From Macrostomum lignano (Eukaryota): a stretch of DNA of 64,000 nt. This document shows positions 5,551 through 30,180 of the stretch, piece after piece. A program made the translations under genes and the position numbers. The stretch's first letter is position 1, and each line of letters starts with the position of its first letter. A model generated the notes under the pieces. That model worked only from the letters and a program-made list of their open reading frames with translations. It was not told where the DNA came from and made no database searches. The stretch spans positions 124,001-188,000 of the forward strand of contig NIVC01000679.1 in the NCBI GenBank assembly GCA_002269645.1. Reading direction: 5' to 3'.

Positions 5551-8500
5551 TTAACGATGCGCTCCGCCTCGAACTGCCGCAGCTCGGTACTGTCTGGGCA
5601 GACGCGGAACTGCCCGACGCCAGTAGTCTCTGTCGTCACTGCTCAGCTCAGCAACATCGCGAAGGAAGGAATTTGTATTTTTCCACTTTTTCACCTGTTT
5701 TTCCAATTTCTAAAGTAAATGAGGAAAGGTGTTGCGATCCATTATCTGCCGGCCATGATCGATTCCTTCCGAGGTAATTCGTTAGGCTTTTACACTTTCA
5801 CTGCTGCATTGTTTCATTGCTGAGGATGTCAAAAGCTTATGGGGGATTGCTCGGATGCCAAGGCTTGTATGGGGGTAAATTATTGAAATGCTGAGGCCGT
5901 CTTTCAGGGCCGATAGTGACTACTAGCAATCAGCGCCCCCCCCCTTAAGAAGGAAACAGAGAATAGAAAATATTTTTTGAATAAACTACATGTAGCTTCT
6001 GACCTCTCAGCCCTGGCGTCTCAGCAATTCTCCCCGTAAGCCTTGACATGACCGTAAATGTACTTACATACTAGTATTTACATATTTTATTTCATTTGCG
6101 TTCTAAATGAACAGAATTTCAATACCAACTATAGAAGTCTTACCTTGTCATTCAATCGGCGAAAACAGACGCATTCCGGGTCCAACAAAGGGAAAAATTG
6201 GCCTTTGTAGCGAGCAATTTTAGCCACAGGTCCGTAGCTGCAGTAGCCGCACAGCAAATCCACACCAATCATATCCATTCCGGGAACCTTTTTGATCTCG
6301 CCTCCATGTTGACCAACAATGCGTTGACCTCCAGTGAACATGTCGGCATCCAGAACGACGCGATGGATTCCGCAAATCAATCGAAGCCGAGTCGAATCCG
6401 ACAGTTTTTCTTCACACTTGCGGCACAGAATTTCGTGGTCGCTATCAATGATGACGTCACTTCCGATAGGTGTGCTATTATTAGCACGTTTTTCCTCTTC
6501 GTCTTTCAGCGCCTTTTCCTGGTAATCCAGCATCTGCAATTGAAAGCTTTTAGCAGTAGCGTATAAAGCTTATAGAAGGCTAAAAGAATTTTAACAAATT
6601 TAATTGTTATGACTTCTTCTCTAGCGGAAGACAGTGAGCCAAGACCTCTTAAGTATTTGCTCTCTTAACCGAGCGTCTTATTTCATGTTATCGTAACCTT
6701 CTTTTATATATCTTTTATATACTTTTTTGCGATTGAATTCGTCCAAACTGCAAAACCTTTCGTCCACTAACGCTTTCTTAATGGGAGCTAAATTAAGATT
6801 ATACCATAGACAACTGTGTTCACGCAAAACGGTTCATCCAGTTTGTAAAACATTTCGTCTAAACCCTTCGTCCAAACAGCTAACAGCTAAACGGAGCGAC
6901 TTTATTTGATATCACGAGATATTGAACAAAGCCTGTCAGACAGCCTAAGTTTTGGCTGTCTTTCTCTTGATCCCAAGGATATCGGCCAGTTGTTTCCAAT
7001 CGCGGCCTTCTTCAACAGCCAAGGCTAATCGCCTGCGGTCTTCGTTTGACACTGGAGGGTAGGGGCCTCGGTTCATCTTCGACTGTTTTGCCGGGTTCAG
7101 AATGGAAGATATGCGTTGCTGTAGCTGTAGTGGTAGCAAAAGCGAACAGTCAATTGGGTGTTAACTATGGTAGGAACAGTACACTCCGTCTCTAGTCTAG
7201 GGGACGAAATGTTTTACAAACTGGATGAACCTTTTTGCGTGAACACAGTTGTCTATGGTATGATCTAAATTTAGCTCCCATTAAGAAAGCATTTGTGGAC
7301 GAAAGGTTTTGCAGTTTGGACGAATTCAATCGCAAAAAAGTATATTTTCCCAGCTTGAAGCATTGCTTCTTTAGCTCATGGCTGCATGGGTGTGTGTGCA
7401 ACTGAATCGTCTATGGCCACACCCAACATTAATAATGCACAAGAACCGAACCTCAAGTAAAGAAGAGAATCAGAGAAGAGAATTCATAACTTTAATTGTC
7501 TATAATTGATTACACCTGCCCTAATGAGCAGATGTACAACCGACAGCTCAGCCGCAGCTATTGCGCGGCGCATCTGAAGGCTGCGTACGGCTGTTCAGTC
7601 AAAGGACTGGGAGATCGCCACACACCCTCAATTACCCCAGCTAATGCTGACACCTATCTTACAGCTGGGTAAACTGAAAAAAAATTAGAGTGAAGTATCT
7701 TTTCCAAGAATTGTTCCGAGTGGGTAGAGAATCGAAAACCCGACCTTCTAGTCATGAGTCCGACACTCTAAACACTAAGCTAAAACCCTCTCACTAGGCT
7801 ATAAAACCAGGGACTACTCAAAGATCCTCTTAAACCTCGCAAACCAGCCTCGTAAAAACTTTGCCATGATTTGCCTAGTTTCCCGTCTCGATGTTATAGT
7901 AGTCCCTGGCTATAACCCTCGAAGAGGCACAGCACAGAGAAAAACAAAGTTGTCCTTAAGTCAACACAGCGATTGAAACTGTCGACAAAAAACTGAAAGA
8001 TTCTCACCTTGACTACCAACTCTTCAGTCGTTAAATCAGTAACGCACGCCACTGATTGCTGCATCATTGCATCGCGCAGCTCATTTTCGCGTTCCTTGTG
8101 ACGCAGCGCCTCCTGTGTCTCAGCTACAATCACGTAATAGGCGCTGTTTTTGGCCCGGCACCGGCCTTTGGTCTGCACCATGGCGATTTCGTTTGTCACG
8201 TGACAGTAGCGCACCACCAGGTTGCAGTCCGGTATGTCTAGGCCTTCTTCCGCCATACTGGTGCAAGCAATCACTTTGTAGTCGCCTTGCCGGAAGCCCT
8301 CAATGCGAGCCTGCTGCTCAGAAGCATTAGTGCCTCCGGAAGCGTCGCTTGAAGTTGCGCCAGTCACATAGGCAGCCGGTAGATGCGGTAGTTGCTCGTT
8401 TAAGAACTCAGTAATCACCTGAGCGTAGATTTTCCGTTGTACGAAAACAATCGCTCGCGAGTCGGCTTGCGAGTTGAACTGGTTGCGAAGGATTTCCACG

Positions 8501-11500
8501 AATTTGTCCAGCGGAGGACTCGACTGCAAGCGATAAACCAGTCATCAAAATAATGGAACGTTGCATTTGGCTAAATGCACTCAATAACAAACTTACCGAA
8601 GCCTCTTTGGTGTCGCAGAATCTTTCTAGCGGCCCGATCAGGCTATGCAGTCGCTGCCGCAGTTGACTCTCCGCCTCGCAGACTGGGGGCTTAGCCAGTT
8701 CGTCCACAGCTCGAAGTTCTTTCTTGATGTAGCGCCACGCACCTCGGGGATTGTAGAACTGCGCAATCATATACGCTTGATTGAATGTGTCCAGATAACG
8801 ACTGCAGGCGAACAGATCTTTGCCCATCTCTTCGTCTGCCACTTGGTGAATTTTGTACTTAACATCGGAGCAGTAGTTTGTGTAAGTTGGAGTGCCTCTT
8901 GGCGGCGCTGATGCAATCTGGAGGGCTTCCGGCTCTGAGTTTAGCAGCGAGCTCCGATTGCTATATAGCAGCTTCTCCCCAAGGTCCATCAGCTCGTTTA
9001 AAAATTTAATGAATACGTCTTCCGAGCTCTGTTTAGCAGGTACCGAGAGGATTTGACAGTCTTGATCTGAGTTAAATTTAAATAGTGACTGAAGATAGCG
9101 CTGCACAGTGACAGGGTAGGGGCAGTCAAGATTGGCGCACAGTTGAACAAGATGCTCCTTGGCATCCTCTGGTCCCTTGGCTTTGCCGGTGCCTTGAGGT
9201 GCAGGTTTTTTGGACGTTTGGATGTTTTGGGTGTTTAATTGGCGTTTTTGTCCACTGGCAGTAGCGTCCTTACAGATCAGACACAATGGACAGTAGTGTC
9301 CTTACAGATCAGAAACAATGGACAGTAGTGTCCTTACAGATCAGACACAATGGACAGTAGTGTCCTTACAGATCAGACACAATGGACAGTAGTGTCCTTA
9401 CAGATCAGAAACAATGGACAGTAGTGTCCTTACAGATCAGAAACAATGGACAGTAGTGTCCTTACAGATCAGAAACAATGGACAGTAGTGTCCTTACAGA
9501 TCAGACACAATGGACAGTAGTGTCCCTACAGATCAGACACAATGGACAGTTGTGTTCTTACAGATCAGACACAATGGACATTGAGTGTCCTTACAGATCA
9601 GACACAATGGACAGTTGTGTTCTTACAGATCAGACACAATGGACATTGAGTGTCCTTACAGATCAGACACAATGGACATTGAGTGTCCTTACAGAGCAGA
9701 CACAATGGACATTGAGTGTCCTTACAGATCAGACACAATGAACAGATCAGGCATCGTTAGACGTGAAATAGCTTAAAAACAAGAATTTAATAATTCATGC
9801 CTCTCTAGCATTTTACCTGGACTGGCCGTTAGCCCAAGAATCCGTGGCAGGCGGGTTCCTCGACAGCTTTCCGATTGATTCTCTTGTTTCAGATCTCTCT
9901 TCAGTCGCAGGTAGTGCATCATCACTTTCATACTGGCGTGGCTCTTTGCACAATTGTGGCATTCGTCGAATATGATGAGGCGGAAATCGGAAATGTTCGC
10001 AACTGTTTTTCTATCAAGCTCGTTTAATAGAATTTGGGTGCTAATGACCAGGATGGAGTTTTTCTTCATAGACAGGGCGAATGGCTTTCGATTCTTGTTG
10101 TCTTTGCCTCCCAGGATTAGGTCAACTCTGTCCCGCCAAGGTGAGGGCAGGGCGGACCTGAACTTGTCGTATTGCTGCTGAACCAGCTGATTAGTGGATG
10201 CCAGAAGTGCCACCTAAGATATTATGGCGTTTGAAAATGGAACAAATGTTCAAACATTAAAAATGAAACATGGTTGTGTTGAATGATAAACTAATTGCTT
10301 TCAGCTCTGACCTTTGCTTGGGGCTCGGCCTTGAGCAGCCGCAGAGCGACGTACACGGCTACCAGAGTCTTCCCAGAGCCAGTGGGCGCGATCACTATCG
10401 AGTTGCGACCTAACAGGGCCGGCTCTGCCAACTCCAGCTGGTAGTCGCGGAGCTGCTGGCCGACGAGCTCGTTGTTGCCAGGCAGCTGAGACCCAGGCGG
10501 CGATGGCGGCTCCTGATTGGCTATTCGCTCAAGCTTGTAAATGTCTGAGTCGAACTTCAGTCCGTTGAGATCGAACCACCGGTTCGATTGGTCGACGACC
10601 GACTTTTTGGCCTCCTCAAACTCCGGACTCGACACTGGATTGTCGAGCTTGGGGCGAATCGCCGAGAGCTCTGAGATGAAGGGGTGGCAATGCATTGAGA
10701 CTGAAATTGATCATCCTAGAGTTCCCATTTTGGGCAAAGGCGTGTCTTCCAGCTGCTTTTATTCAGTGATTTGACCAGCTATTTCAGATGCAATGATCTG
10801 GTCTCTCACCTGACTCAAAGTTTTGGCCGAACGGTGCAATGGTGTCGAGCAGATCGACTGAGCTCTCGAGGTCAGCGATCGCAGCGAGGATGAGGTGCTC
10901 AAACCAGTCGTGAGGTGCACAATCAATGAGCTGGCGAAGCACGCAATGGACGTCTGCGGGTTGAGGCGACAAGGGGATATCTGATAAGGGATCTGGAGAT
11001 GGGATCATGTCACCATGACCATGTGACGGGATCAGGTGACAGGAATCAGAAAGACAAACAAAGGATAGCACCTCAGTAACACAGAAGCTCAACAATTCAG
11101 CAAATCTGCATCTGAGCATTCCAATACCTCAGCGAGTCTGCGAGTCTTCTGACAACTGAGCAGCCCAATAACTCAGCAACTGAGCAGCCCCAATAACTCA
11201 GCAACTGAGCAGCCCCAATAACTCAGCAACTGAGCAGCCCCAATAACTCAGCAACTGAGCAGCCCCAATAACTCAGCAACTGAGCAGCCCAATAACTCAG
11301 CAACTGAGCAGACCAATAACTCAGCAACTGAGCAGACCAATAACTCAGCAACTGAGCAGCCCCAATAACTCAGCAACTGAGCAGCCCCAATAACTCAGCA
11401 ACTGAGCAGCCCAATAACTCAGCAACTGAGCAGACCAATAACTCAGCAACTGAGCAGACCAATAACTCAGCAACTGAGCAGCCCCAATAACTCAGCAACT

Positions 11501-12268
11501 GAGCAGCCCCAATAACTCAGCAACTGAGCAGCCCCAATAACTCAGCAACTGAGCAGCCCCAATAACTCAGAATCTGAGCAGCCCACTCAGCAGCACAGCA
11601 TCTCAGCTCAGCTCACGTGCTGCACTCCCGTCGCCGTCAAGATCTTCAGAAGACTTGCTGAAGTCCTGCAGTGACTGGGCGAAGACGTCTCTCTGCAGTG
11701 CTGCGGGAAGGCTGGCCGGCACTGACAACTGCAGCCGATGAAGACGCGGCAGATCCCGCCGATTGTCCAGGTGCAGAATGTGCAGCAAGTTCTCCTGTGC
11801 TGCTGTTGCGTGGGTTCACAGGGAGATGAGTTGACATTTATTATGCTTTCTCGCATGTACAGCTCAGCATGACAGCACTTACAGCTTGTGATGCAGCGCA
11901 GAAGCTGGCTGAATGCGTCTTCGATTGGCAATTGGCCGACAACCTGCAGCAATTCGGACCAACTGCTGGGCCGATTCATGGTAATGCCTTGAGTGGGATG
12001 AGCTGCATTGGGTGGAAATTCGATCAGGAGCAGACATTGCTGAGTAACGATAATTATTGTCAATTTCAAGAAATTTATCGATTAGATGAATTACACTTTT
12101 TACAGGTTTTCAAAGTTTAGTATTGAGGCACTCACCATTTTTAATATGATTTTCGTACACAGCCACAATATTGCCAATGTCAATTAATCCTTCAATGTCG
12201 TCTTTAAATATATGGAAAAGAAGGCTAATAAGTCCTTCGAGTTCAACGCTTTCTTCGCCACCGTCCAT
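5551..12268 (-). CDS. RIG-I-like receptor A (putative 2xCARD-like N-terminus + DECH helicase + Zn-binding CTD), 999 aa; exons 12268-12136, 12002-11883, 11802-11617, 10953-10810, 10670-10312, 10213-9817, 9192-8597, 8523-8008, 6533-6144, 5709-5551
   Basis: Motifs [27 protein letters not shown]...[30 protein letters not shown]; CTD with CRKC...CGYC and a terminal KKWK motif. All ten exons have GT-AG boundaries with matching phases and total 3000 nt. Confidence 0.92.
6722..7340 (-). mobile_element. Internally deleted Tc1/mariner-superfamily (IS630-like) element with ~140-bp TIRs, in RLR-A intron 8
   Basis: 6722-~6860 is the reverse complement of ~7200-7340, and both ends are flanked by TA. Internal minus-strand [46 protein letters not shown] (7076-6945) resembles a transposase N-terminal HTH. 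Confidence 0.75.
7480..7790 (-). mobile_element. tRNA-derived SINE remnant
   Basis: Minus strand has a degenerate A box (tagcttagtgtttag) and B box (ggttttcgattct), followed by a SINE-core-like 'tcagtttacccagctgtaaga' segment. Confidence 0.5.
9262..9745. repeat. 32-bp minisatellite in RLR-A intron 6
   Basis: Tandem cttacagatcagacacaatggacagtagtgtc. Confidence 0.95.
11150..11595. repeat. 24/25-bp minisatellite in RLR-A intron 3
   Basis: Tandem gagcagccccaataactcagcaact; counterpart at 18560-18985. Confidence 0.95.
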
Positions 12269-12450
12269 GGTTGATTGATATTATTTGTTGATAGGCTCAG
12301 CCGCTTTTAGCTTATTTTTAATTAAAAACTAATTGATTAGTCCACTTGTCCGTTGTCCACTTGTCTTGCATTAACTAACTACCATAGTAATGCAAAGCAA
12401 TGCGGTTGCAGTGACAGAGCTGCCTCTATTTTATCACGACAGGACAGAGC

Positions 12451-12492
12451 GAAACCGAAAAGTGGAAAAGGGAAAGATTTCTTGGAAATTCC
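12451..12492 (+). promoter_or_regulatory. IRF/ISRE-like plus kappaB-like composite element upstream of RLR-A
   Basis: GAAACCGAAAAGTGGAAAAGGGAAAGATTTCTTGGAAATTCC, ~185-225 bp upstream of the ATG; contains a GAAANNGAAA core and GGAAATTCC. Confidence 0.5.
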
Positions 12493-12568
12493 GAGCGCCC
12501 GCGCGGAGGGTATGGCCACCAGTTCTAAAAATAGATTCTACATACCAATGTACACTGAGCGTCTACGT

Positions 12569-17122: not shown

Positions 17123-17662
17123 GCCAACAATATAAATGTTTGCCTCAAATCCTAATTTTTCACGAATGTACTCTATTTTATGTTTAATTCAAACCTAACT
17201 ATTAACAAGTTTTTGTTTGAGTTTGACCTCAGATTTTAGAATACGAGTACATGCAAAATAGTTCCAGGGATTGAAATTCCCCGGGTTCAAAATCCGCGGG
17301 TTTCAACAGCTTGTTGTTATCTAAAACAAACACAAAAATCATGCATGAAACTACTGAACATAATTTACTCGGAGTCAGGAAGGACAATAGACAGAGTAGA
17401 GTAACACAGCACTTTGATAGGAAAGCACAAGCAGAAATGGAAATGAAATTATTGCAAGGCTGCTTTAATGTGTGTATAGAAAGAACCAGAGCAAAAAAAT
17501 AAGATTTGAAATGAAAAAGGGCAGAGACCTCAAATTCACTCTTGTACGCAATGAAATGTACATTTAGCTTGCGGGATGAACGTAGACTCTCAGTGTACAT
17601 TGGTTATATCCTAATAAAATCTATTTTTAGAACGGGCGGCTAAACCCTTCGCGCGGGCGCTT

Positions 17663-17704
17663 GGAATTTCCAAGAAATCTTTCCCTTTTCCAGTTTTCGG
17701 TTTC
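17663..17704 (-). promoter_or_regulatory. IRF/ISRE-like plus kappaB-like composite element upstream of RLR-B
   Basis: ggaatttccaagaaatctttcccttttccagttttcggtttc; reverse complement GAAACCGAAAACTGGAAAAGGGAAAGATTTCTTGGAAATTCC. Confidence 0.5.
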
Positions 17705-17883
17705 GCTCTGTCCTGTCGTGATAAAATAGAGGCAGCTCTGTCACTGCAACTGCATTGCTTTGCATTACTAAGTTAGTTAATGCAAGACAAGTGGACAACG
17801 GACAAGTGGACTAATCAATTAGTTTTTAATTAAAAATAAGCTAAAAAGCGGCTAAGCCTATCAACAAATAATATCAATCAACC

Positions 17884-20800
17884 ATGGACGGTGGCGAAGA
17901 AAGCGTTGAACTCGAAGGACTTATTAGCCTTCTTTTCCATATATTTAAAGACGACATTGAAGGATTAATTGACATTGGAAATATTGTGGCTGCGTACGAA
18001 AATCATATTAAAAATGGTGAGTGCCTCAATACTAAACTTTGAAAACCTGTAAAAAGTGTAATTTGTAATTCATCTAATCGATAAATTTCTTGAAATTTGA
18101 CAATAATTTTCGTTACTCAGCAATGTCTGCTCCTGATCGAATTTCCACCCAATGCAGCTCATCCCACTCAAGGCATTACCATGAATCGGCCCAGCAGTTG
18201 GTCCGAATTGCTGCAGGTTGTCGGCCAATTGCCAATCGAAGACGCATTCAGCCAGCTTCTGCGCTGCATCACAAGCTGTAAGTGCTGTCATGCTGAGCTG
18301 TACATGCGAGAAAGCATAATGAATGCCAACTCATCTCTCTGTGAACCCACGCAACAGCAGCACAGGAGAACTTGCTGCACATTCTGCACCTGGACAATCG
18401 GCGGGATCTGCCGCGTCTTCATCGGCTGCAATTGTCAGTGCCGGCCAGCCTTCCCGCAGCACTGCAGAGAGACGTCTTCGCCCAGTCACTGCAGGACTTC
18501 AGCAAGTCTTCTGAAGATCTTGACGGCGACGGGAGTGCAGCACGTGAGACTGAGCTGAGATGCTGTGCTGCTGAGTGGGCTGCTCAGATTCTGAGTTATT
18601 GGGCTGCTCAGTTGCTGAGTTATTGGGCTGCTCAGTTGCTGAGTTATTGGGGCTGCTCAGTTGCTGAGTTATTGGGCTGCTCAGATGCTGAGATATTGGG
18701 CTCCTCAGTTGCTGAGTTATTGGGCTCCTCAGTTGCTGAGTTATTGGGCTCCTCAGTTGCTGAGTTATTGGGCTGCTCAGTTGCTGGGTTATTGAGCTGC
18801 TCAGTTGCTGAGTTATTGGGCTGCTCAGTTGCTGGGTTATTGAGCTGCTCAGTTGCTGAGTCATTGGGGCTGCTCAGTTGCTGAGTTGTTGGGGCTGCTC
18901 AGTTGCTGAGTTGTTGGGGCTGCTCAGTTGCTGATTTATTGGGGCTGCTCAGTTGCTGAGGTATTGGGGTGCTCAGTTGCTGTGGTATTAGAATGCTCAG
19001 ATGCAGAGTTGCTGATTTGCTGAGCTTCTGTGTTACTGAGGTGCTTTCATTTATCTTTCTGATTCCTGTCACATGACCATGATCACATGACCCCATCTCC
19101 AGATCCCTTATCAGATATCCCCTCATGTCGACTCAACCCGCAGACGTCCATCGCGTGCTTCGCCAGCTCATCGATTGCGCACCTCACGACTGGTTTGAGC
19201 ACCTCATCCTCGCTGCGATCGCTGACCTCGAGAGCTCAGTCGATCTGCTTAACATCATTGCACCGTTCGGCCAAAACTTCGAGTCAGGTGAGAGACCAGA
19301 TTATTGTATCAGAAATAGCTGGTTGAATCACAGAGCAAAAGCAGCTGGAAGACTCCACCTTTGCTGAGATTGGGAACTCAAGGATGATCAATCTCAGTCT
19401 CAATGCATCGCCACCCATTCATTTCAGAGCTCCCGGCGCTTCAGCCCAAGCTCTACAACACGGTGTTGAGTCCAGAGTTCGAGGAGGCCAAAAAGTCGGT
19501 CGTCGACCAATCGAACCGGTGGTTCGATCTCAACGGACTGAAGTTCGACTCTGACACTTACAAGCTTGAGCGAATAGCCAATCAGCAGCCTCCATCGCCG
19601 CCTGGGTCTCAGCCGTCTGGCAACAACGAGCTCGTCGGCCGGCAGCTCCGCGACTACCAGCTGGAGTTGACAGAGCCGGCCCTCGATAATGCCGGCCCTC
19701 GCAACTCGATAGTGATCGCGCCCACTGGCTCTGGGAAGACTCTGGTAGCCGTGTACGTCGCTCTGCGGCTGCTCAAGGCCGAGCCCCAAGCAAAGGTGGG
19801 TGAAAAAAGCAAAACTTTGTTCTGTTATGTTTGGGTATAAGTCGGACCGCGGTTTCCATCTTTTTTGTACATTTTTTGGTTCAGGTAGCATTCCTGGCCT
19901 CTACAACGAACCTGGTGCAGCAGCAGTACGAAGAGTTCCGCTCGGTCCTGCCGCCGCCTTGGCGCAACAGCGTCTGCCCGCCGGTGCACGGTGGAGCGGA
20001 TTCGAGAAATCGAATGCCTTTCGCCCAGGCTCTGAAGGGGCACTCTATCATTGTTATGAGCACTCAGATTCTGCTGAACGCTTTGAACCGCGAACCCGAC
20101 AGCTTCAACGGCCTGGGCGTGTCGGCATTTCGGTTAATTATCTTCGACGAGTGTCACAATTGCTTAAAGGACCACCCAAGCAAAGGGGTGATGGTGCACT
20201 ATATGCGGCGAAAGAAGATTCTTGAATCGTCGGTTGAAGAGCAACAGAAAGGAAGCAAGCTGCCGCAGATTCTGGGACTGACGGCCAGTCCAGGTGAAAG
20301 CTGCTAGGAGCAACTATAGCCAGAAGATAACACTAGGGGGGGAGCCGGGAGTTTAAGTAAGGATACCAGAAACCCTCAAAGACTTAGACAGTGCAGTTTG
20401 TAACAAGGGACGCTTGAGAGATACTAGATTACCCAAACAATGCAAGGGACATTAAGAGAACACTATCGATAAAAAAACGGTACCTAGGCCAAGAAGCATC
20501 TCAGAGTCGGGGTCCACGAGAACTGCCCGCAGACGATTTTCCCGTCGAGATTTGCCCGCCGAGATTTTCCCGCGAGTGAATTGCCCTCGAGCGAATTGCC
20601 CGCCGAGTTTTTTTCCCACCGAGGTTTGTCCGCAATGCTTTTTTCCTTCAAAATCTGCCGAGTGGCTAAATACGCTCAGGAAAAAAGCATTCAACATATC
20701 ACTTTATGAACTAGAATCGACTTGCACAGTTTACTAGCATACGTGTAATAACTCGATCTATTTAGTCTACTTGAGTTAGTAGCAAAAATGGCTAACGCAA

Positions 20801-23800
20801 CGGCTTTTGGACGACTCTTACGATTCGCACGCGATGCGCTCGTGACTCAACAGTTGCATTACAGTCGCTTGAGTCTTCAAATAACATCAGAATCGCTATA
20901 ACCACTAGTGAGTTGTTCCTACGAACCTTAATATAGATGCTAGAGAACTCCAAACAGACACTACATGTATAGAATATTGGAGAACTACAACGGAGAGCAC
21001 TAGAAAACCGTAGCTATTCAAGATAATTCAAAGCCTAATTAGAGGCCATTAAATACACCCAGTAAAAGTACAACCGCACAGACTAATGCGCTAACATCTT
21101 AAAACATTCGTACAAACAAGGCACCGGCAAAGCATCGCGACTCGAGGCCGCCGTGGAGCATCTAATCAAGCTATGCGCCAATCTCGACTGCCCATATCCA
21201 GTCAGTGTGCAGCGCTGCATCAAGTCGCTCAATGAAGTGACATCAAATCCCGATTGCCAGATACACTATGCACCTGGCGATCCAACAAAAGTCGACGTGT
21301 TTATCAACATGCTAAACAGATTAATGAACGTTGGCGAGGGCCTTCTGCGCGACTATTGCGATTCACTTGAACAGTGGCAGAGTGAAGGCCTGCCAGTGTC
21401 GTCTGTGCCTCCCCGAGGCACTCCCGCGTACTTGAACTACTGCACCAATGTGAAGTACAACGTGCACAACATCACTGATCAAACCGTTTGCAAGAATATA
21501 TTAGCCTGCAGCAGGTATCTTGGCTGCTGCAACGAGGCTCAAATGATTGCGCAGTGCTTTCGCGCAGTGGACGCGTTGCGCTATTTGGAGACGGAGCTGC
21601 GAACCGAGGATGAGATGGCAAAGCCACCGGCAAGCGAGGCTGAGGAAAGACTGAGACGGCATCTGGATGACGTAATGCAACAATTGATCAGGTTCTGCGG
21701 CACAAAGGAGGCTTCGGTGAGGAACATGGTTACTGGGTCTAGGGATTTTTTAGTTCTGATAGTACGAGTATATTGAAAATGGACGCAGGATGAGTAGAGG
21801 TTTCTTTGACAGTGCAGTCATTTGGAAGTAATGGGGGTAGACAGCATAGAGGCTGATTTTTTATGCCCTTTACTCGCAAGACTCCAGACCTTCGTATTAA
21901 CCTGTAAAATGAACTCCTTCGTATGTTCCAGTCCAGCCCACCGCTGGACAAGCTAGTCGAAATTCTTCGCGAGCAATTCACCGGCCAGCCAAACAGTCGC
22001 GCTATCGTTTTTGTAAAACAGAAATTTTACGCTCGCGTTCTGGCCGATTTTGTAGACGAGTGTGCGGAACTGCGTCTTAAGGCTACCTACGTGACAGGTG
22101 CAACATCTGGCGAGTCGACGGGAGGCACCAACGCGGCTGAGCAGCGGGCCAGACTTGAAGACTTCCGACGCGGTCTCTACAAAGTGATCGCTTGTACGAG
22201 TGTCACTGAGGAGGGCCTGGACATCCCCGACTGCAACCTGGTGGTGCGCTACTGTCACGTGACTAACGAGGTCTCCATGGTGCAGACCAAGGGCCGCGGC
22301 CGGGCCAGAAATAGCGCCTATCACGTGATTGTAGCGGAAACGCAGGAATGGCTGAAAGATAAAGAACGCATCAATCAGGAGCGAGATGCCATGATGTCCC
22401 AGGCGGTGAGGACGGTTGCTGCCATGTCAGCAAGGGAACTGGAGATTCAGGTGAGAGATTAACATATACATGTAAATAATCCCGAATTGGGTCGATTTGG
22501 TATGACTCCCAGCTTTGATGCCTCCTGCTTGCAGATGCTCGAATATCAAGTAAGAATGATGAACACAGATGAGGATAACCAAGCGGCTGGAGGCGGAGAC
22601 GTCAATCAGGCCAACAACAACCGAGGTCAAGTTCTTGACAGCGATCACGACATTCTGTGCAGCAAGTGCTTCACTCAGCTGTCACATTCGACTCGACTTC
22701 GTTTAATCGGCGACATCCACCGGGTTGTTGTCGATGTCGAGATGTTCGCCAGCGGCGGCCGACTTCGCGGCCAAGCTGGCGGCGAAGCCAAAAGGGTGCC
22801 CGGCGTGGAAGTAATTGGCGTTGATCTAGTGTGCGACAGCTGCGGCTTCAAGGTTGCTAAGGTTGTAAGCTACGGCAGACTGTTCTTCCCGCTGCTGACC
22901 GTCGAGGCCGTGCTGTTTCGTCGGTCTATTACAATGGTATGGAACTGCCTGTAGAAATTAGAAGTTTGAGTTGCTACTGTTGCTGTGGATATGATTGGAG
23001 GAGGGTGCGACAGGACAGAAGATTGGGATGGATGGGGAAAGAAGGAGTTAGAGAAGAAAGCAGATGGAGAGTAAATTGATGAGAGTGGACAAGCTTCTTG
23101 TTGATCTCAGCTAAGGGATAAATGAATTGCCCGATGAAAACGGTATCTAAGCTAAGAAGCGTACCAGAGTCACTTGCGTCGCCTTACAGTCGTTGCAGGT
23201 AACACAAAATAGGAAAGAAATGACTCTAGACGACTCTAAAACGATGAGATGAAATGGTTAAAGTCACCAAAAATTCGTCACCAAAGAAGTCACGAAGTGT
23301 TTTGTTGTCTGTGACTCTGAAATCGACTCTGGTGCCGTAAAGAGTCGTATTTGAGGCGTGCTAAAGTCGCTGTAGTCACTGAGTTGTGTTTAAAGCGCAT
23401 TTGCGTCGCTTGATGAATTGAGTCGTATCTGTAGCAAAAGTTATAACGCCAACTCAACGATTCTTGGACAATTTTTTCATGATTTACGCTTTTGCGACGC
23501 AAGTCGCCTCCGTCGCATTTGACGCGTTTGAGTCGTTAAAAAGTCACAAGAGTCGCCCAGAGTCACAAGTAAAGTTGTTTGCAACGACTTTTTAGCGATT
23601 CTTGTCACGGTACCGTTTTCAACGGGTTGAGACTTGAGAGCGCACGCTGTCATTTTATTAGAGCAAATGCAGGTACGGAATACTCGTGAAATTCTCACTA
23701 GATAGTCAGCTTTATCAGTAGCCTGGCAACCCTCATTACCACATGCAGGAAACGGAAAGGCCGGCAAGAAAGTGGAAAGCAACAGAGAGTTTTCTTCGGC

Positions 23801-25745: not shown

Positions 25746-27108
25746 GATGCCTGGTCTGAGCGCTGCAGTGAGATGGCGAGATATGCTCACATTTATTTGG
25801 CTTTTATCACTGTAGAAATATTAATTAAGTAAGGAGAATAGCGGCCACTGAAGGGTCTGAGGGGAGGGGCAGCAGTAGCTCGTAGTAATAGAAAATTACG
25901 TCCATACCCCATTTTTCAATTGCAAAACACGTAATAAGGTACCCGTCAGAAATTTTATTACGCACATACCTTATTTTTGTATTAAAAATCAAATAATAAG
26001 GTACCGAACCAAATGGTTGGGTATTCTACAGGAATTCCAACTAAACTGCAGTGCAGCCACAAAGAACGAGAAAGAAAAGACCCCGACACCGATCAACCAA
26101 GTTGCTGAAAAACGACATAGCTATTTCTGCATTACAAGAATAGAGGAAACACGCACCCACAAAGAACAAAAGAAAAGAGCTTAATAAATTGCAGAAGTCA
26201 AATTGTGCCACAATCCCCCTGCAAGCAAAACCCAGCTCAGAATAGGCTACAGGCAGTAAATAAGCCGCCTGCTGCGCCTTATACTTTCTCCCCATACTGC
26301 CTTTCCTACCAGGAGTCATTCAAGACCCCAATTTTTTAATTTTCAAGAAAAGACCATTGAGAATTACGAACGATACAAACTCCTATTTTTTATTTTTAAA
26401 CGTATTTGAAATTTACCAGCCAAATATATACATACTTCAAAGATGGGACAAAAAGTTGCTAGTTTAAGACAGTAGTAGGCCCCAAATATCTTAAGTTATT
26501 CGGCTCGGGTATACATTCATATTTTGCATTTCTAACATTCGTAAGCCACTAAACTGTCTTGATTGAATGCTTCAATATCATTTTTTCGTTGTCCAACCTG
26601 TTCATTTCTGCAGTTCTTCGCCACCGTTCCTGTTCGTTGTACTATCACTTGCTCAAAAAACTAAGTATACTTGAATTTAACGGACTAAAGTATAACACGC
26701 CAAAAGACATAATCAGTTTTCAATTCTCAGTCACTGATCGACAAACCAATCACATCCGAAAAAACCGGGTAATTGTAAGTGTTGCTGTGACGAGATCCTT
26801 CTGAGCTCGGTACTGACGGCCATGCACAATAATAAATTGAACCTTCGTAGTGAGAAACAGTCTTGGGGTCGAATCGACTTGACTTGTATTATTCTATATA
26901 TTTGAACAGATCGGATACAGTTTTAGTATCATGACGTTAAATTCTTTATGGTAAACTAAGGCAAACGAACGCAAAATTGCGATATGACAGTCTTTTAAAT
27001 AACTTTAAAATTCCCTAATGAATAGTGGATTATTACAATACTAAGTAGACATTAATATTACCAAATTATATACGAACAACTACATATCAGTATCGTTCCA
27101 TTGCGCAG

Positions 27109-27426
27109 TCAGGCGTCCGCAGTCAAGTCCCAATAGTCCATAGTCGTCAGTTTTCCAGACTTCATCTCCCGGAAGAAAAAGCGGTACCACCCAGTACCTA
27201 GGGCTTGCACTGCCAAGGCATATTCGCCCTCGCAAACCGTGACATTCTCGGGGTACATATAACCCGGAGGCGGCCGCGCAAAGACCTCGTTCTTGAACGC
27301 TGCAAAGAGAGAAGACGCAGCCCATTAGTACCCGATCAGCTTCTTAATAAACAAAAAGCCCAATAATTGCTTACCGTCTCTCACATATCGCTCAGCTAGC
27401 TCTTTCTTTCGGGCGGATTTGTCCAT
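27109..27426 (-). CDS. Intact two-exon 80-aa ORF of unknown function inside the Maverick; exons 27426-27375, 27299-27109
   Basis: MDKSARKKELAERYVRD-A-FKNEVFARPPPGYMYPENVTVCEGEYALAVQALGTGWYRFFFREMKSGKLTTMDYWDLTADA*. The 75-nt intron has G|gtaag, a ctaat branch point and ttctctctttgcag, and the phases match. Confidence 0.6.
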
Positions 27427-27759
27427 ATTCGTAGTGAATGCAATGCTAGTGTAAAGACAAGACTAGAAAATTCTCGGCGAATACTGCAAAATGGGCCAAG
27501 TAGCGGTCCTGTTCGAGAGGTTAGTGTTGAGGAAGCACCAAAAATCGGCATCTGAAGGCATTCAAAAGGAGATACGACGCTCTTGTAAAAACTCTTTTCG
27601 AAGAGGGTAGTTCTGCGGAGGCTCTTCCATCGTCTTTAACGCCGGAAGAGGTGGAAAAGTTGTTCGAGTATGTTGTCCGAGACAGACCGCTAAAAAGACA
27701 TGGTAGGTGGCTTTGAATCTTTTCTCGCTTTTTTGCGTAGACGTAACGTGCATGGTGCT

Positions 27760-27914
27760 CAGCTCTATAAGGAAGGAAATGTAAAGTTGGAGTTGCGCTT
27801 CGCTCAAGCAACAAGCGCGTTGTCTACAATGTAATATTCAATGGTCTATTTGACAAGCAGCTGCAGATCACGGAGCTTCGCGACGTCGTGCCGGGCACAG
27901 CATGGAGGAAGTGA
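27760..27914 (+). pseudogene. C-terminal fragment of Polinton-type major capsid protein (frameshifted)
   Basis: LYKEGNVKLELRFAQAT / YNVIFNGLFDKQLQITELRDVV resembles the Polinton MCP C-terminal pattern (GxxxLExxFA...NVIxxxxFxxxxEIxxxRxV); it overlaps the protease ATG. Confidence 0.6.
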
Positions 27915-28451
27915 ATCTGAACATGTTGCAGAGTGCCAGTGACAGATTCTTGCGGTCAATTATTACAATTCTATGTATGAGATTGTTTGGTTTTGTCTTT
28001 TTGGGTGTGTATCCTCAGGACTCGATTAGAACTCTTGGACAATTACCTTTAGATGGTAAAGACTATTTCTTTGTGGCGAATACAGACACTTCGAATCTTC
28101 CTGGTAGGCATTAGGTTGCAGTTTGGGTGAGTAGCAGGCGGGTTAGGGGGGGGCCGTGGACGAAGGGTCGGGGAATATTTTGATTCGCTTGGTTTAAATC
28201 CGCCGGAAAATATTAGACGGTGGTTGGGGCGAGAATGTGGGGATTTTCAAAATTGGTCCTACAGCCGATTTGCTATTCAGGATCCTCGGACTGGACATTG
28301 TGGTATTTGGGTGTTGTTTTGTTTGTATTTCAAACTGACTCGTGGTGGTAGCCTTCGCTTCTTTTTAACGCGTATTCTTGGTTGTGAGCCTCGTCGAAAA
28401 AATGAATTTCGGCGCGTGTATTTTTGCCTACGACGCTTTACAGCACATTAG
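27902..28451 (+). pseudogene. Adenain-like (Maverick) cysteine protease, disrupted
   Basis: FLGVYPQD...FVANTDTSNLPGRH*VAVW...EYFDSLGLNPP...IQDPRTGHCGIW gives the His/Asp/Gln-Cys catalytic motifs. TAG replaces Trp at 28112-28114, and there is a frameshift near the G-run at ~28130. Confidence 0.85.
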
Positions 28452-28732
28452 TTGCCTCTGTTCTTGTAATGCAGAAATATACGGAAAGTGCGTTTTGGAC
28501 AAGTTGGTTGGTTGATCGAAATTTAGATCTTTTCTTCTTTTGAATTATTTGTGGGTGCGGTGCAGTGTAGTTAGGATTCCTGTTGTATACCCTACCATTT
28601 GGTTCGGTATCTTACTACTTGATTTTTAATAGGAAAATAAAGGTATGTGCGGAATAAAATTTCTGACGGGTTACCTTATTACGTGTTTTGCAATTGAAAA
28701 AATGGGTATGGACGTAATTTTATATTACTACT

Positions 28733-30180
28733 GGCAGCAGGCACAGAAGGATCTGTGGGGAGTGACACCAGACACTGAAGGATCTGAGGGGAGGGGCAGC
28801 AGCATGAAGGCACTGAAAGATCTGAGGGGAGGGGCAGCAGCCACTGAAGGATCTGAGGGGAGGGGCAGCAGGCACTGAAGAATCTGAGGGGAGGGGCAGC
28901 AGCCACTGAAGGATCTGAGGGGAGGGGCAGCAGGCACTGAAGAATCTGAGGGGAGGGGCAGCAGGCACAGAAGGATCTGTGGGGAGTGACACCAGGCACT
29001 GAAGGATCTGAGGGGAGGGGCAGCAGCATGAAGGCACTGAAAGATCTGAGGGGAGGGGCAGCAGCCACTGAAGGATCTGAGGGGAGGGGCAGCAGCCACT
29101 GAAGGATCTGAGGGGAGGGGCAGCAGGCACTGAAGAATCTGAGGGGAGGGGCAGCAGGCACAGAAGGATCTGTGGGGAGTGACACCAGGCACTGAAGGAT
29201 CTGAGGGGAGGGGCAGCAGGCACTGAAGGATCTGAGGGGAGGGGCAGCAGCCACTGAAGGATCTGAGGGGAGGGGCAGCAGGCACAGAAGGATCTGTGGG
29301 GAGTGACACCAGGCACTGAAGGATCTGAGGGGAGGGGCAGCAGGCACTGAAGAATCTGAGGGGAGGGGCAGCAGGCACAGAAGGATCTGTGGGGAGTGAC
29401 ACCAGGCACTGAAGGATCTGAGGGGAGGGGCAGCAGGCACTGAAGGATCTGAGGGGAGGGGCAGCAGCCACTGAAGGATCTGAGGGGAGGGGCAGCAGCC
29501 ACTGAAGGATCTGAGGGGAGGGGCAGCAGGCACTGAAGAATCTGAGGGGAGGGGCAGCATGCACTGAAGGATCTGAGGGGAGGGGCAGCAGCCACTGAAG
29601 GATCTGAGGGGAGGGGCAGCATGCACTGAAGGATCTGAGGGGAGGGGCAGCAGCCACTGAAAGATTTGAGGGGAGGGGCAGCAGCCACTGAAGGATCTGA
29701 GGGGAGGGGCAGCAGGCACTGAAGGATCTGAGGGGAGGGGCAGCAGCATGAAGGCACTGAAAGATCTGAGGGGAGGGGCAGCAGGCACTGAAGGATCTGA
29801 GGGGAGGGGCAGCAGGCACTGAAGGATCTGAGGGGAGGGGCAGCAGCCACTGAAGGATCTGAGGGGAGGGGCAGCATGCACTGAAGGATCTGAGGGGAGG
29901 GGCAGCAGGCACTGAAGGATCTGAGGGGAGGGGCAGCAGGCACTGAAGGATCTGAGGGGAGTGGCAGCATGCACTGAAAGATCTGAGGGGAGGGGCAGCA
30001 GCCACTGAAGGATCTGAGGGGAGGGGCAGCAGGCACTGAAAGATTTGAGAGGAGGGGCAGCAGCCACTGAAGGATCTGAGGGGAGGGGCAGCAGGCACTG
30101 AATGATCTGAGGGGAGGGGCAGCAGGCACTGAATGATCTGAGGGGAGGGGCAGCAGGCACTGAATGATCTGAGGGGTTAG
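28733..30180. repeat. 31-bp G-rich minisatellite (one orphan unit also at 25843-25873)
   Basis: Tandem gaaggatctgaggggaggggcagcagccact with variant units. Confidence 0.95.

What the first reader, a model, noticed from the sequence alone, without database searches (positions are those of the whole stretch)
27109..27426. Intact spliced 80-aa cargo gene inside the decayed Maverick
Seen: while the capsid and protease are broken, the opposite strand holds an uninterrupted two-exon ORF with textbook splice signals (G|gtaag, ctaat, ttctctctttgcag) and matching phase. I do not recognise the protein (basic N-terminal helix, PPPGYMYP, GTGWYRFFF, DYWDL). Established: some Mavericks carry and horizontally transfer cargo genes, including toxin-antidote components in nematodes. 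Inference: a selected cargo gene (viral accessory factor, immune antagonist or selfish element) could explain why this deletion derivative persists.
Basis: partly seen in the sequence, partly recalled or inferred. Interest (0 to 1): 0.72.

Follow-up and report, generated by a model that had tools for sequence, protein, structure and literature searches.

The report
Spliced accessory gene of flatworm Mavericks
A small two-exon gene inside a broken virus-like transposon of a flatworm is really spliced and recurs, with the same intron, in four families of that transposon but in no host gene we found, so it is likely the element's own accessory gene, of untested function, rather than cargo that keeps this broken copy alive.

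Summary
The 80-aa two-exon gene is there, and its 75-nt intron is skipped in contigs of 4 of 8 runs, from three studies. NCBI lists the protein as a Macrostomum lignano hypothetical. It lies in a 2.86-kb Maverick deletion derivative. It is not recognisable host cargo: homologues with the same intron position occur in four Maverick subfamilies of this genome, including full-length elements and a 185-aa form, and none were found outside this species. Between relatives dN/dS is 0.13-0.28. The idea that it explains the element's persistence is not supported. Only 5 of 20 close copies are intact, 3 of 5 copies of this insertion are frameshifted, the gene varies as fast as its flanks, and the native TATA-like box is deleted here. 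Function is unknown; a non-enzymatic helix-plus-sheet adaptor is my best guess. The scan had no look-alike of this protein but has noted other spliced Polinton genes.

The parts
25874..28732 (.). Non-autonomous Maverick/Polinton deletion derivative, 2,859 bp, inserted about 125 bp upstream of the ATG of an RRM gene (RBMX2/Snu17-like, label recalled)
   Evidence: AGTAG...CTACT ends, flanking GGCAGC duplication, homology to full-length C2529 and C889
25868..25873 (+). Left target-site duplication GGCAGC
28733..28738 (+). Right target-site duplication GGCAGC
25874..26150 (+). Left terminal inverted repeat
   Evidence: 25882-26150 pairs with 28451-28731 at 82%
28451..28732 (+). Right terminal inverted repeat
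27375..27426 (-). Exon 1 CDS: 17 codons plus 1 nt, basic N-terminal helix
   Evidence: exon-end/donor pattern has 69 matches in the genome against 0 for the reversed control
27300..27374 (-). 75-nt phase-1 GT-AG intron; position conserved in four subfamilies
   Evidence: joint in RNA-like contigs; homologous introns of 70-87 nt and 266-365 nt
27109..27299 (-). Exon 2 CDS with stop: K-N-x-V-F-x-x-P-P block, variable loop, three-strand meander ending in Y-W-D-L
26936..27108 (-). Likely 3' UTR; spliced contigs of X1 and X2 (one study) end at 26936, just past a CATAAA word
   Evidence: contigs cannot prove an RNA end
27468..27475 (.). Deletion junction about 45 nt upstream of the ATG; the TATA-like word found further upstream in relatives is absent here
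27468..27751 (+). Remnant of the 238-aa ORF that precedes the integrase in full-length elements
   Evidence: 86-87% to C889 and C2529
27750..28451 (+). Remnants of the capsid-position ORF's C-terminus and of the protease, both interrupted
   Evidence: 93-94% to C2529, C889, C1390; tblastn pieces; protease identity via C1390

Best explanation
This is a spliced two-exon gene whose intron position is shared by four Maverick subfamilies in this genome; it is likely the elements' own accessory gene, predicted to encode a small non-enzymatic binding protein, and this copy is likely a passenger kept because it lies near the element's end. Shown: splicing, the conserved intron, Maverick-linked distribution, purifying selection between relatives, and decay of most derivative copies. 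Inferred: selection acted while the parent elements were multiplying; the gene fills an exchangeable slot between the terminus and the core genes; this copy lost its TATA-like box at the deletion junction and is now transcribed from some upstream start. The most likely job (about 35%) is a protein- or nucleic-acid-binding regulator or adaptor that the element expresses through the host spliceosome.
For: Splice joint in 4 of 8 runs, absent from the DNA-like pair. Homologues at 77-79% and 33-40% in exon 2 and a 185-aa form with about 105 extra residues in the loop, all with the intron after the same codon. The 18.9-kb element C889 carries it intact near its terminus; INT, ATPase, PLA2-like, dUTPase and dNK hits on C889 and a PolB hit on its 95-97% relative C272. 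The long form lies 11.9-16.8 kb upstream of the capsid-position ORF at 20 of 25 loci of the 78-81% class (45 of the 97 rows were used). Of 44 loci, 40 have Maverick DNA within 1.5 kb (partly circular library). Patchy: absent from the fetched left arms of C2529, C297, C4948, C1680 and C3758. dN/dS 0.14-0.19 for this copy against 5 relatives. Intact copies: 5 of 20 close, 2 of 2 C889-type, 0 of 13 third-type, and 26 of 44 rows with a full open exon 2 for the long form. AlphaFold: helix 3-20 plus strands 39-41, 44-52, 55-62, 68-74, pLDDT 69; the long form keeps the helix and three strands around a disordered insert, at low confidence (pLDDT 41). No hydrophobic segment.
Against: The window's own allele is intact and spliced in X1, and the frameshifted allele is listed in only 1 of 8 runs. 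The sibling comparison rests on few, non-independent changes, and some homopolymer breaks may be assembly errors. Among long-form copies pN/pS is only about 0.4-0.8 on few changes. No protein evidence exists, and the functional part has no positive support from any family or fold match. A host origin too old or too diverged to detect is not excluded; small spliced genes in repeats are rarely annotated, so the blank in other species is weak.
Confidence: 0.7

Rival explanations
1. A domesticated or selected copy: the host, or Mavericks in trans, benefit from the protein made at this insertion, and this keeps the derivative in place.
For: Intact ORF, spliced in several studies; the X1 contig carries the window's own base at 27400 with no gap. 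A DNA-like run shows an in-frame exon 2. The neighbouring protease and capsid-position ORFs are broken.
Against: 3 of 5 copies of this insertion are frameshifted and the gene varies like its flanks. All 5 copies of an independent 2.1-kb derivative are frameshifted. This copy has Glu at a Gly conserved in the other subfamilies (polymorphic). The TATA-like box is lost. A 1.9-kb derivative with the same ends (C273:259803-261692) shows no match to the gene.
Confidence: 0.12
2. Host-derived cargo, like the intron-bearing WASP/KRMA cargo of nematode Mavericks, whose cellular source has been lost or has diverged beyond detection.
For: Spliceosomal intron and a position in the variable region next to the left repeat, as reported for nematode cargo (10.1101/2022.07.12.499685, passages); core Maverick genes are reported as intronless (PMC8097293).
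Against: No host-context homologue in the genome searches or in protein databases. Divergence to about 33% identity across Maverick subfamilies indicates long residence in the elements.
Confidence: 0.13
3. A selfish toxin or antidote component, or an immune antagonist acting through a PPxY/PPG-type motif.
For: PPPGY occurs in the short forms and PPGY twice in the C889 form; reading it as a WW- or GYF-binding motif is recalled, not tested. The element lies near RIG-I-like helicase genes.
Against: The abundant long form reads PPPD at that place, so the Tyr is not invariant. No partner gene lies in the 2.86-kb element, there is no hydrophobic segment, most copies are broken, and the other insertion sites have unrelated neighbours.
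Confidence: 0.05

Closest known systems
Accessory-region ORFs of Mavericks/Polintons (Barreat and Katzourakis 2021, PMC8097293; passages and section 7 seen)
   Same: Sits in the variable region between a terminal repeat and the core genes; elements of about 19 kb with AGT...ACT ends and 6-bp target duplications; patchy among subfamilies.
   Different: That paper reports no introns in genes of intact vertebrate elements; here a spliceosomal intron is conserved across four subfamilies and is shown to be spliced in this copy.
Intron-bearing cargo of nematode Mavericks: WASP proteases, KRMA kinases, msft-1 (10.1101/2022.07.12.499685; passages seen)
   Same: Intron-containing gene in the low-conservation region next to the left repeat, exchanged between elements.
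   Different: Those are large enzymes with ubiquitin-like N-termini, and most family members lie outside Mavericks; this is an 80-185 aa orphan with no enzyme match and no non-Maverick homologue found.
Adintovirus accessory genes: Oncoid, cupiennin-like, GasderminX, Bcl2, IAP (Starrett et al., PMC8502044; passages seen)
   Same: Small accessory gene upstream of PolB in C889-type elements.
   Different: No LXCXE or paired CXXC motifs and no hydrophobic segment in the sequence; no family match.

Membership tests
Maverick/Polinton deletion derivative (the host element) | Terminal inverted repeats with AGT/ACT end motifs and a 6-bp target duplication | tested here: met
   motif definition from PMC8097293 section 7; the left end carries a short extra stretch
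Maverick/Polinton deletion derivative (the host element) | Derives from elements with protein-primed PolB, integrase, packaging ATPase and protease | tested here: met
   DNA_pol_B_2 E=2.5e-19 (C272), rve E=2.8e-6, Pox_A32 E=0.002, S273R-like protease E=2.4e-6; window arm 93-94% to these elements
Maverick/Polinton deletion derivative (the host element) | Double jelly-roll major capsid protein in the parent | tested here: inconclusive
   No Pfam or PDB hit for the 440-aa ORF; labelled by position and recall; not folded
Maverick accessory gene | Located between a terminus and the core module of full-length elements and variably present | tested here: met
   C889, C272 and C84-type elements carry it; C2529, C297, C4948, C1680 and C3758 left arms do not
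Maverick accessory gene | Purifying selection during element propagation | tested here: met
   dN/dS 0.13-0.28 in 13 of 15 pairs of short-form copies; weak in long-form pairs
Host-derived Maverick cargo (WASP/KRMA type) | Contains introns | tested here: met
Host-derived Maverick cargo (WASP/KRMA type) | Homologues in ordinary host context or in other species | tested here: inconclusive
   None found, but no other flatworm genome could be searched and 3 of 44 true loci had no blastn flank match
Toxin-antidote element | Linked toxin and antidote with transmission distortion | not testable with these tools
   No second intact gene in the element; crosses needed
PPxY-bearing viral adaptors (motif recalled) | Conserved PPxY motif | tested here: not met
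   The long form has PPPD at the homologous place and one third-type copy PPHGY

The most novel reading that the evidence does not exclude
An old, virus-born spliced gene family of flatworm Mavericks that works as a terminal 'early' regulator, in the manner of adenovirus early units, and is supplied in trans by dozens of defective elements, so that integrated fragments tune the activity of the live virus or the host's response to it.
Probability: 0.1. Interest if true: 0.7.

Novelty: new member of a known kind. Interest (0 to 1): 0.36.

Why it matters
It adds an orphan gene family to animal Mavericks. The intron has been kept through divergence to about 33% protein identity and through exchange between subfamilies, although Maverick genes are usually described as intronless and their intron-bearing genes as recent host cargo. 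That implies these elements have long relied on the host spliceosome. It is testable, since the host is a laboratory flatworm with RNAi (recalled). The value is moderate: the function is unknown, and this particular copy looks like a passenger.

Tried and rejected
Family searches: Pfam and PHROGs gave nothing under E 0.03; PDB sequence gave one E=0.63 hit and no profile hit. A resemblance to CKS1 that I recalled was not borne out by Pfam. Representative-library hits P0002 and P0004-P0018 (16 of 18) are summed partial matches in long proteins; 6 of them were scanned and are repeat-rich or unrelated, so they were rejected. ESM Atlas: features under 0.9; structure neighbours at TM 0.60-0.63 are unnamed 73-83 aa phage clusters, leads only. 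Fold searches: no Foldseek match at E<=0.001 in PDB or BFVD; best VIA Z 6.1 (pyruvate carboxylase, rmsd 3.9, 64 aligned), then pilin-like and gp25-like rows at Z 4-5, a common arrangement. The long-form model was too poor to search (pLDDT 41). Homodimer prediction returned no verdict. No listed run holder is on record as RNA. Viral contigs gave no locus. The 56 metagenome and 4 viral matches of the exon-1 pattern had no exon-2 homology (0 of 60). An intron-retained amphipathic peptide was considered; intron differences between copies change its residues, so it was rejected (read by eye). Splicing of the long form was not tested with reads. Literature searches found no paper on Macrostomum Mavericks or this gene; PMC10748475 and 10.64898/2026.10.13.758929 (passages) added nothing. 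No supplements were read; those of the Maverick surveys could list this ORF.

Full report
Observation. On the minus strand, 27426-27375 and 27299-27109 join across a 75-nt GT-AG intron to give an 80-aa ORF. The product is identical to an NCBI/UniRef hypothetical protein of Macrostomum lignano. A comparable structure appeared in 0 of 300 shuffles of the element. The joint is listed in contigs of 4 of 8 runs laid (X1, X6, X8; X2; three studies). X5 and X18 show matching loose ends. The two DNA-like runs of one sample show no joint. No run is on record as RNA, but 5 of 8 show a common loose end at 25763 on the neighbouring RRM gene, which I recall as the flatworm spliced leader.

The element. It spans 25874-28732 between GGCAGC duplications, with inverted ends 82% alike. 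The left arm holds the gene. After a junction at 27468-27475 come 284 bp of the ORF that precedes the integrase, and after a second junction at 27750 the end of the capsid-position ORF, the protease and the right repeat, 93% identical to the 18.8-kb element C2529. Related full-length elements encode PolB, integrase, ATPase, PLA2-like, dUTPase and dNK proteins and an S273R-like protease. The capsid label is by position and recall only. The assembly holds five copies of this same insertion with shared host flanks.

The gene family. DNA and protein searches of the genome found close copies at 77-79% exon-2 identity and distant ones at 33-40%. A profile then found a 185-aa form, also annotated in NCBI, with about 105 extra, Ser/Thr/Pro-rich residues between the two conserved blocks. 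In all four subfamilies the intron falls after the same codon in phase 1, with lengths of 70-87 nt or 266-365 nt. A pattern for the exon-1 end and donor gave 69 matches against 0 for the control; 1 of the 30 examined was a chance match in a simple repeat. The long form lies 11.9-16.8 kb upstream of the capsid-position ORF at 20 of 25 loci of its class; at least 3 of the other 5 contigs end too early (45 of 97 rows used). Of 44 loci, 40 have Maverick DNA within 1.5 kb, a partly circular test. The gene is absent from five other fetched left arms. C2529 has another ORF there, although the DNA upstream of the gene in C1157 is 93% identical to C2529's left arm. This copy's gene is 33% identical to that of C889 in exon 2 while its right arm is 94% identical to C889 in DNA. 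The gene therefore behaves as an exchangeable module (inference). No homologue outside this species was found; this is a weak blank for a small spliced gene.

Selection. Among six short-form copies, 13 of 15 pairs have dN/dS 0.13-0.28 with Fisher p<0.05; the two closest pairs give 0.33 and 3.2 (pairs are not independent). This fits constraint along the branches between active parents and drift after insertion. Long-form pairs show only weak constraint on few changes. Intact copies number 5 of 20 in the close subfamily (two with a GC donor), 2 of 2 in the C889 type and 0 of 13 in the third type (C889, C273 and C927 were not parsed there and are judged). In the long form, 26 of 44 rows have a full open exon 2. 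Three of the five copies of this insertion are frameshifted, and that allele appears in 1 of 8 runs. Against the four siblings the gene shows 10 substitutions and 4 gaps in 4x318 nt, the flanks 69 and 34 in 4x1,982 nt, so there is no deficit. Relatives carry a TATA-like word about 70-100 nt upstream of the ATG; here that stretch is replaced at the junction, and RNA-like contigs run from exon 1 into the replaced stretch (strand unknown). Against my reading, the window's own allele is intact and spliced in X1, and some homopolymer breaks elsewhere may be assembly errors.

The protein. AlphaFold gives a helix (3-20), a low-confidence proline loop and a three- to four-strand meander (pLDDT 69). 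The long form keeps the helix and strands around a disordered insert at low confidence, which agrees with the insertion site. The conserved residues form two blocks, L-x-E-R-Y-V-K-x-A-x-K-N-G-V-F-x-x-P-P and a C-terminal (E/D)-(Y/F)-(W/F)-D-L. There is no hydrophobic segment and I see no conserved catalytic set. The PPPGY word is not invariant. I infer a small non-enzymatic binding protein, a regulator or adaptor of the element (about 35% for this function; about 70% for 'Maverick accessory gene, passenger here').

Comparison with what is known. Accessory regions with diverse ORFs are described for Mavericks, whose intact genes are reported as intronless (PMC8097293; passages and section 7). 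Intron-bearing cargo next to the left repeat is described in nematodes (10.1101/2022.07.12.499685; passages). Adintovirus accessory genes are listed in PMC8502044 (passages), and none matches. Six searches found no paper on this gene or on Macrostomum Mavericks; supplements were not seen. Earlier notes of this scan mention other spliced Polinton genes in flatworms (unchecked) but no look-alike of this protein.

Verdict. A real, spliced, previously unnamed Maverick accessory gene family with a conserved intron: a new member of a known kind. Interest 0.36.

Noticed in passing
window 27300-27374 and relatives: The intron differs less between copies (5-16%) than synonymous sites do (35-49% in the distant pairs), suggesting constraint on the intron or recombination within the gene.
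   Followed up: partly
window ~25323: The RRM (RBMX2/Snu17-like) CDS has one base fewer than 3 sibling copies and than every run contig that covers the place: likely an assembly error in this contig.
   Followed up: partly
window 25763: Spliced-leader-like loose end on the RRM gene in 5 of 8 runs, with a variant sequence in X2. The Maverick end lies about 110 bp upstream of this site.
   Followed up: no
window 27622-27666: About 43 nt present in the window but skipped in sibling copies and in 5 of 8 runs, RNA- and DNA-like alike; it looks like a local tandem duplication.
   Followed up: partly
window ~8000-12500 and ~17600-22950: Inverted duplicated pair of DEAD/Helicase_C genes that look RIG-I/MDA5-like (label recalled), 71-99% complementary in blocks.
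   Followed up: no
G000 C1383, C2542, C3539, C3924, C4373 and others: The most abundant Maverick family here has its left-arm gene only about 11.9 kb from the capsid-position ORF, against 16.8 kb in C84 and C1136; C3539 keeps only about 630 bp of PolB, so a PolB-less derivative has amplified.
   Followed up: partly
G000:C889:26751-45674 (L145, L076-L078): 18.9-kb element with open PolB, integrase-chromodomain, ATPase, PLA2-like, dUTPase and dNK ORFs and a weak TBP-like hit (E=2.6e-4) upstream of PolB.
   Followed up: partly
G000:C1157:249055-249233 and C1638:156163-156347: Copies with exon 1 and the intron but a truncated exon 2; contigs matching their junction appear in X1 and X2.
   Followed up: no
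G000:C2529:17986-18696 (L127): A 237-aa ORF without a Pfam match, and an inverted protease remnant, occupy the left-arm slot in the element that shares this window's ends.
   Followed up: no
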